A stretch of DNA of 63,535 nt, the filler included, from Collodictyon triciliatum (Eukaryota): NCBI GenBank assembly GCA_043381765.1. It is 22 parts of 22 records of this genome, joined end to end, with 100 filler letters (N's around TTAATTAATTAA, not from the genome) between each part and the next. Parts side by side here need not be neighbours in the genome. Positions count along the whole stretch, not along the records: positions 44,226 to 47,101 come from JBHJMP010008147.1; positions 47,202 to 50,075 come from JBHJMP010008148.1; 20 more parts are not named here. One strand, 5' to 3'. The notes under the pieces are model-generated. The model was given only the letters and a program-made list of their open reading frames with translations, was not told the DNA's origin and searched no databases. This document shows, in pieces, positions 46,276 through 48,352 of this stretch. A program made the position numbers and the translations under genes. Position 1 is the stretch's first letter. Every line of letters starts with the position of its first letter.

Positions 46276-48240
46276 CGAGTGTCTTGGGCTCTAAAGTGGT
46301 TTGTTGTTGATTTCTTTTCCTTCCTTCCTTCTTTTTTTTTTTCCTGCTCTTGCTCTTTCTTTTTATCTGCTGCCCCCTTTTTACTTCTTATTTTTATTGT
46401 CTTTTATTGTCTCGTATTGTGTTTCGCTGCTCTTTGTGTTTCTTGCCGATCGGGTGTCGTTGGGGCGGTGTGAAAGGAAGAGGAGAGGGAAAGATGGTTG
46501 ATCTGGCAAAGAGCGCACGATGGTGGGAATCGAACATTCTATTTTCCTGCTGCTGATTATATGCATTCTTACTAAATGTTGTCTGCTCGGCTGTGATGCA
46601 AGTAAAGTTTGGCTTGGTTGTTCGCTCTAGTTTTTTCGTTTGTATATTTAGTCTCATGGCTTCTCTGTTCTATTACATTTTCCGCCGCTTCTTTTTCTTT
46701 TCCTTTTGTTCTACTCTTTCCTTCCTTCTTTCTTCAAACTCTCGAATTGTTTCCGTGTTATTCAGCATCAGTCAATCCTTCTGGCGATGGCAGCGTCCGG
46801 CGTTTCACCAGTGGATGAGGTTTGTTGAGCGACTTTTTTTTTTTTTTTAATACTCGTAGTCTTTGATAATGGTGCGTATTTTTCGACTTTTTTTTTCTCG
46901 GAGACTCTTTGTGGCTTACTTCTGTGGTATCCTATTAGAAACGCCTCTATGAGACCTTTTCTGTTTGTGCGCAATGTGCGTTTCTGGATCGACAAGGTTT
47001 GAAAAACAAACAAACAAACAAACAAACAAACAAACAAACAAACAAACAAACAAACAAACAAACAAACAAACAAACAAACAAACAAACAAACAAACAAACA
47101 ANNNNNNNNNNNNNNNNNNNNNNNNNNNNNNNNNNNNNNNNNNNNTTAATTAATTAANNNNNNNNNNNNNNNNNNNNNNNNNNNNNNNNNNNNNNNNNNN
47201 NTTCTTTTTTCTTTCTTTTTTCTTTCTTTTTTCTTTCTTTTTTCTTTCTTTTTTCTTTCTTTTTTCTTTCTTTTTTCTTCTCTTTCTTTTTTCTTCTCTT
47301 TCTTTTTTCTTCTCTTTCTTTTTTCTTCTCTTTCTTTTTTCTTCCTTTTTTCTTTCTCTGATCTTTACAAGGAGAAGAGGCTATAACAATAATAGCAATA
47401 GTAGCATCACAATATTATGAATTGTGGCAAGAGAGTGAAAGAAAGAAGGGTTAATTAAATATTACAATTTGCAAAAGGCTGTGTTGGAGCGCCGGCTTAG
47501 TTCTGCGTATTGAGGGTGAAGCAAAACAGCTTCGATCTTGGTCTCACTCAGCCCGAGGAATTCCGAATGTCCTTCAGCCATAATATCGTTTCTACAATAT
47601 TGTTTAGTTCATCAAATAAAGCTTGTTTTCTTTTCTTTTTCTTTTTCTTTTCTTCTTTTTTCTATTCCTTTTCCTTTTCCTTTTCTTCTTTTTCTTCTTT
47701 TCTTTTTCTTTTTCCTTTCTTTTTTCCTTTCCTTTCCTTTTTCTTCTTATTTTTTTTTTTTACTGATTATTGGTTTGTAAATTATTCTTTTTTTTTCTTA
47801 CTTATATTACTGGTATTATTTTGCTACTACTACTTTATTTTTTCCCTTTATTTGCTTCAATGTTGCCTCGAATTCTATACAATTGGACTCAGAAAAAATC
47901 CAGCGAGGTATGGCGACGGTTTAGATGAAACGGAATGCTTGTTGATGCGTTCATGATAACATATTCTGATACCACAGAGTCCTTTTTTTGACAAGCAAAA
48001 GTTGTATCTAGTTTGTTCTTTACTTTGCTCTTAGGTTTGTTCTTTACTTTGCTCTTAGGTTTGTTCTTTGGTTTGGTTTGGTTTGGTTTGGTTTGGTTTG
48101 GTTTGTTATTCTCGATCTCTGAATGCGCGGGAATCGATCGAGTTTTTCGCGATCCCACTTCCACTGAGAAAGTAATGAAAAGGTGAATGGAAGTACGGTA
48201 TTTAATATGTCTGCTGATCTGAAATTATTTCCATATTAGA

Positions 48241-48352
48241 AGGGGTAAACCAATCTTTCGATTGGTAAACCTGGTGCGCTAGTATCCAACGTCAATCCAC
48301 TTTTTCAGAAAGACTGTGTAGTGGCGAGGGCTGCCAGAAAGACCCGACAGCC
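48241..48352 (-). ncRNA. Candidate Fanzor omegaRNA scaffold (copy A)
   Basis: Non-coding segment just 3' of the Fanzor stop, homologous to 63059-63173. Three hairpins, including ACCAATC-GAAA-GATTGGT. Confidence 0.6.

What the first reader, a model, noticed from the sequence alone, without database searches (positions are those of the whole stretch)
48221..48352. Candidate omegaRNA with covarying hairpins and a definable scaffold-guide boundary
Seen: about 115 nt after the stop are conserved between copies (A 48352-48241 minus, B 63059-63173). Hairpin 1 keeps pairing despite sequence change (A GGCTGTCGG/CTGGCAGCC, B GGCTCTAGGG/CCCTGGAAGCC). Hairpin 2 has a CCACT/AGTGG core, 9 bp in B. A 29-nt block TAGCGCACCAGGTTTACCAATCGAAAGAT is identical and leads into a GAAA-tetraloop stem that is perfect in A and eroded in B. 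Similarity ends at TAC(C/T)CCCT. Inference: this is the scaffold and element right end, and the following flanks would be guides (A TCTAATATGGAAATAATTTC, B ATGGTTAGAGTGATACACGA).
Basis: partly seen in the sequence, partly recalled or inferred. Interest (0 to 1): 0.8.

Follow-up and report, generated by a model that had tools for sequence, protein, structure and literature searches.

The report
Guide-RNA end of decayed Fanzor genes
This stretch is the folded tail that normally encodes the guide RNA of a eukaryotic RNA-guided nuclease (Fanzor1); here it sits behind two broken gene copies, so it is an ordinary example of a published design with nothing showing it is still in use.

Summary
Both copies lie at the 3' end, on the coding strand, of decayed Fanzor1 genes. 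A profile of their closest full-length relatives matches solved Fanzor1 structures at E 2e-44 to 4e-36.

The region folds far better than shuffles on the sense strand only (z -4.2 and -3.8, against -1.0 and -1.5 antisense and -0.8 and -0.3 in the flanks). Similarity between copies, and to more than 150 related contigs in each of two public runs, stops at 48239-48253. So it is most likely the omegaRNA scaffold and right end of a Fanzor1 element.

Several claims need correction:
- No base pair covaries column by column (0 of 35). Hairpin 1 of copy B survives by a one-base register slip.
- The identical 29-mer is not exceptional for this alignment.
- The "stop" is a decay stop. In intact relatives the reading frame runs through hairpins 1 and 2.
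- The boundary is uncertain by 12 nt, so copy B's guide is unsure.
- Both nuclease genes are dead.
- No RNA evidence exists.

The window is also a chain of about 2.9-kb pieces, so the two copies are not neighbours. Verdict: a new member of a known kind, of low interest.

The parts
48241..48352 (-). Copy A: candidate omegaRNA scaffold (112 nt), from the start of hairpin 1 to ...ACCCCT
   Evidence: Sequence read. MFE -43.0 kcal/mol, z -4.17. Antisense z -0.98.
48329..48352 (-). Copy A hairpin 1: 10 bp including 3 G-U pairs, 4-nt loop. It overlaps the former C-terminal codons (QAVG...).
   Evidence: The coding overlap follows.
48297..48324 (-). Copy A hairpin 2: CCACU/AGUGG core of 5 bp
48292..48294 (-). 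TGA that ends the frame homologous to the relatives' C-terminal tail; the likely ancestral stop
   Evidence: The ORF 48292..48393 (minus) reads ...KKKQAVGSFWQPSPLHSLSEKVD. The relatives P0094 and P0095 read ...LFKKQAVGY....
48253..48281 (-). 29-nt block identical in A and B
   Evidence: It is not exceptional beside runs of 31, 27 and 25 nt elsewhere in the alignment.
48244..48271 (-). Copy A terminal hairpin: 7-bp stem with a GAAA loop plus 3 outer pairs
48221..48240 (-). Copy A flank, which would be the guide if the scaffold ends at 48241
   Evidence: No similarity to B's flank. Nothing was laid on 48150-48223 in the 4 runs. That it is a guide is inferred only.
48380..50075 (-). Copy A: decayed Fanzor1 gene, matching residues 78-620 of relative P0095. 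It has an in-frame stop at 48834-48836, a frameshift near 48655 and another before 48380. It runs into a spacer at 50076.
63059..63173 (+). Copy B: candidate scaffold (115 nt). Hairpin 1 is at 63059-63084 and hairpin 2 (9 bp) at 63086-63120. The terminal stem is eroded.
   Evidence: MFE -39.2 kcal/mol, z -3.77. Antisense z -1.50.
63133..63161 (+). Copy B: the same 29-nt block. BLAST similarity to A ends at 63161.
63174..63193 (+). Copy B flank proposed as the guide. It is uncertain, because the junction may lie at 63161.
62097..63051 (+). Copy B: decayed Fanzor1 gene, matching residues 344-640 of P0095. Its frameshifts lie at other places than in A. The RuvC-I motif reads VVHASK instead of VGVDPGK. 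An 80-nt insertion at 62141-62220 is flanked by an 18-nt direct repeat. The piece starts at a spacer at 62074.

Best explanation
The region is the right-end module of a Fanzor1 transposable element: the DNA that encodes the structured scaffold of its guide RNA (omegaRNA). In a working element, an RNA read from the coding strand would start within the last codons of the nuclease gene. It would fold into a 5' hairpin (hairpin 1) and two or three further hairpins, and run across the element's end for some 15-20 nt into the flank. Fanzor1 would bind the scaffold and use the flank-derived part as a guide to cut matching DNA next to a TAM. That cut would favour the element's retention or spread.

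What is shown here: the gene family, the position, the strand, the sense-specific fold, and the end of family similarity. What is inferred: transcription, binding and guide use.

At these two loci the nuclease genes are dead, so the modules are most likely decaying relics. At best they could be read by an intact family member elsewhere, like the 'ghost' loci of Spizellomyces.
For: Gene family:
- Window fragments are 55-66% identical to the 648-aa relative P0095 and 67% over 99% of the C-terminal 92 aa.
- tblastn maps A to P0095 residues 78-620 and B to residues 344-640.
- A profile of P0095, P0094, P0010 and P0005 hits Parasitella Fz1 (9cf0, 2.1e-44), Spizellomyces Fz1 (8gkh, 1.4e-43) and Guillardia Fz1 (9cer, 4.1e-36).
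- Copy A keeps the motif D...TS-xx-C4...RD given in the abstract of Bao and Jurka 2013 (PMC3627910).

Position:
- The region is on the same strand as the gene and overlaps about 20 former C-terminal codons. GtFz1's omegaRNA likewise overlaps 17 codons (PMC10432273, section 7).

Fold:
- Sense z -4.17 and -3.77, antisense -0.98 and -1.50, flanks -0.75 and -0.33. Hairpin 1 of A has 3 G-U pairs, which exist only in the sense RNA.
- Random mutation with the observed number of changes (5 substitutions and a 2-nt indel) keeps hairpin 1 as stable in only 23 of 5000 trials (A to B) and 11 of 5000 (B to A).

End of the element:
- BLAST similarity between A and B stops at 48253/63161 and the flanks are unrelated.
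- In 4 public runs 401 contigs of the family were laid (159, 191, 3 and 48). Nothing was laid on 48150-48223. One contig reaches 48239 and another stops at 48253.

Relatives:
- 10 of 11 metagenome loci with intact Fz1 genes carry a conserved 3' segment that ends sharply (...GGTGTAA) before unrelated flanks. The eleventh runs off its contig.
- That segment is structured, with 7 of 36 predicted pairs changed on both sides. Its last ~33 nt are the right terminal inverted repeat.

Size:
- A 112-nt scaffold plus guide lies within the published 75-150 nt range, and GtFz1 has four stem-loops (PMC11423790, section 5).
Against: - There is no RNA evidence. The contigs of the polyA metatranscriptome run X7 touch only coding parts, and X1 and X2 are only guessed to be RNA.
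- Strict covariation is absent: 0 of 35 pairs and 0 of 19.
- A/B divergence in the gene is nearly neutral. dN/dS is 0.72 over 263 codons, and differences by codon position are 25, 42 and 32. Much of the change is therefore post-mortem drift, and the kept hairpins could be partly inherited rather than selected.
- The 3' region is the least conserved part of the alignment.
- A covariance model of the metagenome clade's 3' RNA does not find A or B. Of its 10 matches at E<=10, none lies at the 3' ends.
- No Rfam family matches at E<=0.4.
- B's terminal stem is broken.
- Both nuclease genes carry stops and frameshifts. B lacks the RuvC-I Asp. Both copies have Asp where relatives and PpFz1 have the Glu of (V/I)xEF(R/K)TS; that this Glu is the catalytic one is recalled, not tested here.
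- No left end is visible, so a terminal inverted repeat and a TAM cannot be checked.
Confidence: 0.68

Rival explanations
1. The structure is a DNA-level transposition signal and not a guide RNA. One candidate is the 3' subterminal hairpin of a Helitron/Helitron2-type element that has captured a Fanzor1 gene, as in the CRe-1,2,3 elements of Chlamydomonas. Another is a transposase-binding end.
For: - The GAAA-loop stem lies 6-12 nt from the end of similarity in A, which is where Helitrons carry their hairpin.
- Bao and Jurka 2013 (PMC3627910, sections 8-9 read) describe Helitron2 Fanzor1 families with intact 3' ends and internal deletions.
- Three contigs in X1/X2 join 48360-48362 to 48458, 48559 or 48597, which look like internal deletions that keep the 3' end.
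Against: - Fold excess is specific to the sense strand, and G-U pairs do not exist in a DNA hairpin of the other strand.
- Hairpins 1 and 2 lie 60-110 nt from the end, further than a Helitron end signal needs.
- The two roles are not exclusive: in SpuFz1 the omegaRNA spans the right inverted repeat (PMC10432273, section 7).
- No RepHel gene, 5' end or insertion-site rule could be checked here.
Confidence: 0.12
2. Nothing functional is present. The similarity is plain shared ancestry of two dead copies, partly former coding sequence, and the hairpins are chance features of one ancestral sequence.
For: - Divergence is nearly neutral.
- 0 of 35 pairs covary.
- The 29-mer is no longer than identical runs elsewhere in the alignment.
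- Hairpins 1-2 lie in former codons.
Against: - Sense z-scores near -4 in both copies, against about -1 for antisense and flanks.
- Hairpin 1's stability survives 5 substitutions and an indel, which only 0.2-0.5% of random mutants achieve.
- Intact relatives have a structured, covarying 3' RNA at the same place.
Confidence: 0.1
3. The modules are still in use. They would be nuclease-less 'ghost' guide loci, transcribed and loaded in trans by intact Fanzor1 copies of the same abundant family.
For: - The family is abundant in runs X1 and X2, with 159 and 191 contigs at 80-99% likeness.
- Copy A's scaffold folds perfectly although its gene is broken.
- Ghost loci are documented in Spizellomyces (PMC10432273, section 7).
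Against: - No RNA data exist.
- B's terminal stem is eroded.
- The 3' region diverges faster than the gene.
- No intact family gene was seen in the window.
Confidence: 0.1

Closest known systems
GtFz1 omegaRNA (Guillardia theta Fanzor1; Saito 2023 PMC10432273 section 7; Xu 2024 PMC11423790 section 5)
   Same: It is encoded on the gene's strand and overlaps the last codons (17 aa in Gt, about 20 former codons here). It has several stem-loops (four in Gt, three or four predicted here). Its total length is about 130-150 nt, and the guide is taken from the flank past the right end.
   Different: No sequence similarity was tested or seen. The published SL1 has 7 bp, whereas hairpin 1 here has 10. 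Expression and binding are shown for Gt and not here. The genes here are dead.
SpuFz1 omegaRNA and ghost Spu-1 loci (Spizellomyces punctatus; PMC10432273 section 7)
   Same: [quoted passage not shown] Copies without a working nuclease keep the scaffold.
   Different: The Spu scaffold is 75 nt with two stem-loops. Its 30-nt inverted repeats and upstream CA are defined, whereas no left end is visible here.
   Same: The proteins are 35-47% identical to the window's closest relative P0095. A conserved structured 3' RNA overlaps the ORF end and stops sharply. The first stem starts at the aligned protein position and with similar letters: GGCTGACC there, GGCTGTCG here (suggestive only).
   Different: Those are 3.3-kb elements with 33-nt inverted repeats and a DDE_3 transposase. 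Their covariance model does not detect the window's region, and nhmmer with the window's region finds nothing in them (best E 5.6).
CRe-1,2,3 Helitron2 Fanzor1 elements of Chlamydomonas (PMC3627910 sections 8-9)
   Same: Fanzor1 sits in an element with a 3' subterminal hairpin, and the families have intact 3' ends and internal deletions.
   Different: Membership is untested. There is no RepHel gene, no 5' end and no TTTT target rule to check. Both window copies are cut by spacers, not shown to be 5'-truncated.
ISDra2 TnpB omegaRNA (prokaryotic OMEGA system; named in PMC10432273, details recalled)
   Same: The general design is the same: the scaffold overlaps the 3' end of the nuclease gene and the guide comes from the flank beyond the right end.
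   Different: It belongs to a bacterial IS200/IS605 element with a TnpA partner. No similarity in sequence or fold was tested.

Membership tests
Fanzor1 (protein next to the RNA) | Sequence homology to characterised Fanzor1 nucleases | tested here: met
   A profile of the closest relatives matches PpFz1 at 2.1e-44, SpuFz1 at 1.4e-43 and GtFz1 at 4.1e-36. Window fragments are 55-67% identical to P0095. Pfam alone gives only weak hits: PF07282 at 3e-4 and PF01385 at 0.039, both below their cut-offs.
Fanzor1 (protein next to the RNA) | Motif D-X(125,275)-[TS][TS]-X-X-C4 zinc finger-X(5,50)-RD (abstract of PMC3627910) in an intact open frame | tested here: not met
   The motif letters are present in A (VDAGK ... 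TSKMCFNC ... CKEC ... TRD). However, the frame is broken by a stop at 48834-48836 and by frameshifts. B reads VVHASK at the first Asp and has other frameshifts. Both are pseudogenes.
Fanzor1 omegaRNA | Encoded at the 3' end of the Fanzor gene, on the same strand, overlapping or following the stop | tested here: met
Fanzor1 omegaRNA | Scaffold conserved among copies up to the element's right end, with unrelated sequence beyond | tested here: met
   A/B similarity ends at 48253/63161. Family contigs of 4 runs end by 48239-48253, and nothing was laid on 48150-48223. The exact end is uncertain by 12 nt.
Fanzor1 omegaRNA | Stable stem-loop structure of the sense RNA | tested here: met
   z -4.17 and -3.77 on the sense strand, against -0.98 and -1.50 antisense and -0.75 and -0.33 in the flanks
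Fanzor1 omegaRNA | Base-pair covariation among copies | tested here: inconclusive
   0 of 35 pairs and 0 of 19 change on both sides with two sequences. Hairpin 1 is kept by a register slip, and its stability is matched by only 23 and 11 of 5000 random mutants. More copies could not be fetched.
Fanzor1 omegaRNA | Right end is an inverted repeat of the left end, with a TAM beside the left end | tested here: inconclusive
   Both copies run into spacers before any left end. No inverted copy of the 29-mer exists in the window.
Fanzor1 omegaRNA | An RNA of scaffold plus a guide of about 14-20 nt is made and bound by the nuclease | not testable with these tools
   Only contigs of runs could be laid. 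They cannot show the ends, strand or level of an RNA.
Known RNA families (Rfam 15) | Match to a curated covariance model | tested here: not met
   No match at gathering score. The best sub-threshold matches are E 0.45 and 0.97, to unrelated families.
Helitron2-type Fanzor1 element | 3' subterminal hairpin, asymmetric terminal repeats, 5' hairpin, RepHel relatives | tested here: inconclusive
   Only the subterminal hairpin is seen, in copy A. No 5' end is available.

The most novel reading that the evidence does not exclude
The scaffold modules outlive their nuclease genes because they are still used. In this reading the family keeps many gene-less or gene-dead right ends, including internal-deletion forms that join the scaffold to mid-gene sequence, as a dispersed library of guides. 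These guides would be loaded in trans by a few intact Fanzor1 copies. Hairpin 1 would be held by selection even through a register slip.
Probability: 0.1. Interest if true: 0.45.

Novelty: new member of a known kind. Interest (0 to 1): 0.25.

Why it matters
If confirmed, this adds one more Fanzor1 lineage with its own omegaRNA architecture: about 112 nt with three or four hairpins. That lineage is distinct in sequence from the mariner-type clade found in lake metagenomes. It could be useful for cataloguing natural guide scaffolds and for asking how scaffolds drift once the nuclease dies. It does not change what is known about how Fanzor systems work. These two loci are dead copies, so their value is mainly as annotation.

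Tried and rejected
More copies of the scaffold:
- A 22-nt core of the 29-mer had 0 exact matches in viral contigs, metagenome contigs and genome contigs.
- nhmmer with the A/B alignment finds only A and B in the window (next best E 0.15) and nothing in L001-L011 (best E 5.6).
- BLAST of all of copy A against the window finds only B.

Close relatives' DNA:
- The search for related loci with A's C-terminal 92 aa in viral contigs gave 0 confirmed of 11 stretches.
- P0095 gave 0 of 36 in viral contigs and 0 of 53 in genome contigs.
- The metagenome scan with alignment A3 gave only distant relatives: 11 confirmed of 55 stretches, at 35-47% identity. The contigs of P0094 and P0095 were not reached.
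- The first alignment (A2) was too diverse to be used.

Cross-clade RNA homology:
- Model R1, built from 6 metagenome 3' ends, gave 10 matches at E<=10 in the window and none at the 3' ends of A or B.

Other searches:
- Rfam gave nothing.
- No whole genome is held for the window.
- Earlier findings by place and by sequence returned nothing.

RNA evidence:
- The 3 contigs of the polyA metatranscriptome run X7 lie only on 48534-49055. No cover of the scaffold was seen, which proves nothing.

Rejected ideas:
- A long-range pairing of AGUCUUUC with GAAAGAUU in A, analogous to the metagenome clade's closing stem, is not kept in B. I read this by eye.
- Retroposition as the origin of the copies was dropped. 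There is no poly-A at the 3' ends, and the apparent 5' truncations are spacer cuts.
- The shared heptamer CAGACAT, 34-39 nt into both flanks, was judged compatible with chance.
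Full report
**What is in the sequence**

Copy A is 48352-48241 on the minus strand and copy B is 63059-63173 on the plus strand. BLAST joins A 49191-48253 to B 62221-63161 at 85.6% identity over 946 nt, and finds nothing alike beyond those ends. The 29-mer TAGCGCACCAGGTTTACCAATCGAAAGAT occurs twice in the window at up to 3 mismatches, with none expected by chance. nhmmer and BLAST find no third copy in the window.

**The window itself**

The N runs form 21 pairs of 44 N spaced about 2,975-2,985 nt apart, plus three longer runs. 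At the two pairs I read, the 12 letters between the two runs are TTAATTAATTAA, which gives a stop in every frame. The pieces get slightly shorter along the window. I infer that the window is a chain of separate ~2.9-kb contigs joined by spacers.

- Copy A lies on the piece 47202-50075 and copy B on the piece that starts at 62074.
- Their distance and mutual orientation therefore mean nothing.
- Genes across a spacer, such as the LRR-like frames at 50266-50715, are not neighbours.
- Both gene copies are cut by a spacer. A is cut at residue 78 of the relative P0095 and B at residue 344. Neither is shown to be 5'-truncated.
- No whole genome is held for the window.

**The gene**

The frames upstream of both stretches are pieces of a TnpB-like gene.

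- Pfam gives only weak hits (PF07282 at 3e-4, PF01385 at 0.039).
- A HMMER scan of 1.84 billion proteins with A's 135-aa piece gave 77 relatives at E<=0.001, including full-length proteins of 620-680 aa.
- A word-indexed search with A's last 92 aa gave two close relatives at 67% identity: P0094 (223 aa) and P0095 (648 aa).
- A profile of P0095, P0094, P0010 and P0005 matches the solved Fanzor1 proteins of Parasitella (2.1e-44), Spizellomyces (1.4e-43) and Guillardia (4.1e-36).

So the gene is Fanzor1, and both copies are dead.

- A has an in-frame stop at 48834-48836 and frameshifts near 48655 and just before 48380.
- B has frameshifts at other places and reads VVHASK where relatives read VGVDPGK.
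- B also carries an 80-nt insertion flanked by an 18-nt direct repeat.
- Both copies have Asp where relatives and PpFz1 have the Glu of the (V/I)xEF(R/K)TS motif.
- Over 263 comparable codons dN/dS is 0.72, and differences fall 25, 42 and 32 on codon positions 1, 2 and 3. Most divergence between A and B is therefore neutral decay.

**The 'stop' and the coding overlap**

P0094 and P0095 continue ...LFKKQAVGY... after the point where A stops. In A the letters AAAAAACAGGCTGTCGGG encode KKQAVG in another frame. That frame stays open to TGA at 48292-48294. Hairpins 1 and 2 thus lie in about 20 former C-terminal codons, and only about 55 nt were ever non-coding. This is the known arrangement for GtFz1 and ISDra2 TnpB, whose guide RNAs overlap the gene's end (PMC10432273, section 7, read).

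**Structure**

The sense strands fold at -43.0 kcal/mol (A) and -39.2 kcal/mol (B), with z -4.17 and -3.77 against dinucleotide shuffles. The antisense strands give z -0.98 and -1.50, and flanks of equal length give -0.75 and -0.33. The excess is therefore local and strand-specific. This fits an RNA with G-U pairs rather than a DNA palindrome.

- Hairpin 1 is 10 bp in both copies.
- Hairpin 2 has 5 bp in A and 9 bp in B.
- The GAAA-loop stem has 7 of 7 pairs in A and 3 of 7 in B.

**Covariation**

On the sequence alignment no pair changes on both sides: 0 of 35 in the structure I named and 0 of 19 in the RNAalifold consensus. In A's register, B has two broken pairs. B regains 10 bp by sliding the 3' arm by one base and bulging an A. 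Only if the arms are realigned by structure do two pairs look compensatory.

As a rough test I mutated each hairpin 1 at random with the observed 5 substitutions and 2-nt indel. Only 23 of 5000 mutants (A to B) and 11 of 5000 (B to A) were as stable as the real partner. For hairpin 2 the figures were 45 and 645 of 5000. This speaks for some constraint on hairpin 1. It assumes, however, that one copy derives from the other, and it rests on two sequences.

**Conservation**

The identical 29-mer is not remarkable. The same alignment has identical runs of 31, 27, 25 and 24 nt in the gene. The last three 40-column windows are the least alike, at 75, 75 and 67.5% against 80-95% elsewhere.

**Boundary**

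After GAAAGAT the next 12 nt match at 5 of 12 positions, which is no better than chance. Independent help comes from public runs.

- Runs X1 and X2 hold 159 and 191 contigs of this family at 80-99% likeness, and X3 holds 48.
- Nothing was laid on 48150-48223.
- One X3 contig aligns to 48239, and one X2 contig stops at 48253 with 46 further unlike letters.
- The variants shown in the scaffold (48290, 48308, and an inserted base behind 48336) are the states seen in B.

The family's end therefore lies at 48239-48253. The junction in B (63161 or 63173), and hence B's 'guide', is unsure. Three contigs join 48360-48362 to 48458, 48559 or 48597, which look like internal-deletion copies that keep the 3' end.

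**Relatives with intact genes**

A metagenome scan returned 11 loci with uninterrupted Fz1 frames, 35-47% identical to P0095.

- Ten of the 11 carry a conserved 3' segment ending ...CGGCGTTTTAAATGTTCAAGGGTGTAA, after which the flanks differ. The eleventh runs off its contig.
- The segment overlaps the ORF end and is kept at the DNA level even where the ORF stops earlier (L007-L009).
- It is predicted to be structured, with 7 of 36 pairs changed on both sides.
- Its last ~33 nt are the right terminal inverted repeat of a 3.3-kb element. That element also encodes a DDE_3 transposase (1.3e-13).

A covariance model of that RNA does not detect the window's region, and Rfam has no match. The window's scaffold is therefore a different sequence family. 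The only hint of homology is that the first stem begins at the aligned protein position with similar letters (GGCTGACC there, GGCTGTCG here).

**Comparison with the literature**

- SpuFz1 has a 75-nt scaffold plus a 14-15-nt guide spanning the right inverted repeat, and 134 gene-less 'ghost' loci keep it (PMC10432273, section 7).
- Fz1 omegaRNAs range from 75 to 150 nt. GtFz1 has four stem-loops, and only SL1 (7 bp) is structurally conserved (PMC11423790, section 5).
- Fanzor1 genes ride in Mariner, Helitron, IS4-like, Sola and MuDr elements (PMC3627910, abstract).
- The Helitron2 families CRe-1,2,3 have intact 3' ends with a subterminal hairpin, and frequent internal deletions (PMC3627910, sections 8-9).

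The terminal GAAA stem in A could therefore double as such a DNA signal. That cannot be tested without a left end.

Earlier notes of this scan list many Fanzor1 scaffold ends and gene-less derivatives in giant-virus mariner elements. I treat them only as a sign that the design is common.

**Verdict**

The best reading (0.68) is the omegaRNA-scaffold right end of a Fanzor1 element, preserved behind two dead gene copies on separate contigs. Transcription, binding and guide use are inferred. This is a new member of a known kind, of low interest.

Noticed in passing
whole window; read at 50076-50175 and 61974-62073: There are 21 pairs of 44-N runs about 2,975-2,985 nt apart. At the two pairs read, the runs are separated by TTAATTAATTAA. 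The pieces get slightly shorter along the window, which looks like a chain of separate ~2.9-kb contigs joined by spacers. Adjacency across a spacer is therefore not genomic context.
   Followed up: partly
62141-62220: Copy B carries an 80-nt insertion that ends in an A-run and is flanked by the 18-nt direct repeat TCTTTATTAGCGGCAAAG. Its core, ACTTTGAATCGAATAAAGGAAAAA, recurs near 54240 and 61464. It looks like the tail of a small retroposed repeat.
   Followed up: no
12052-14325 (-), 3-821 (-), 831-1880 (-): On other pieces there are long open frames with DUF5906 (a family I recall as D5-like primase-helicase; 2.6e-12), Ulp1 protease (1.8e-10) and a SET domain (1.8e-9). These may be virus- or Maverick-like genes in the same assembly.
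   Followed up: no
19690-19762 (+): The only tRNA in the window is tRNA-Ile with anticodon AAT. From recall, that anticodon is typical of eukaryotic nuclear genomes. It lies on a different piece from the Fanzor copies.
   Followed up: no
L001 1137-4452; also L002-L009, L011: These freshwater metagenome contigs carry 3.3-kb elements with 33-nt terminal inverted repeats, a DDE_3 (Tc1/mariner-like) transposase on one strand and an intact Fanzor1 on the other. The right repeat forms the end of a structured, covarying 3' RNA. L007, L008 and L009 are the same element in different flanks.
   Followed up: partly
48360-48362 joined to 48458, 48559 or 48597, in contigs of runs X1 and X2: Single contigs skip 97, 196 or 234 nt of the C-terminal coding part and keep the scaffold. 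These are possible internal-deletion derivatives of the family.
   Followed up: no
48200-48207 (-) and about 63195-63202 (+): Both flanks contain CAGACAT, 34-39 nt past GAAAGAT. I judged this compatible with chance.
   Followed up: no
14473-14572 (-): This is the best window match of the metagenome-clade RNA model R1 (19.1 bits, rough E 0.013). The stretch is TA-rich and is probably a chance match.
   Followed up: no
30736-31308 (-); 50266-50715 (-): There are leucine-rich-repeat frames. The first gives LRR_8 at 2.6e-17. The second shows the LxxLxLxxNxLxGxIP pattern by eye but has no Pfam hit at 0.001. Both lie on pieces other than those of the Fanzor copies.
   Followed up: no
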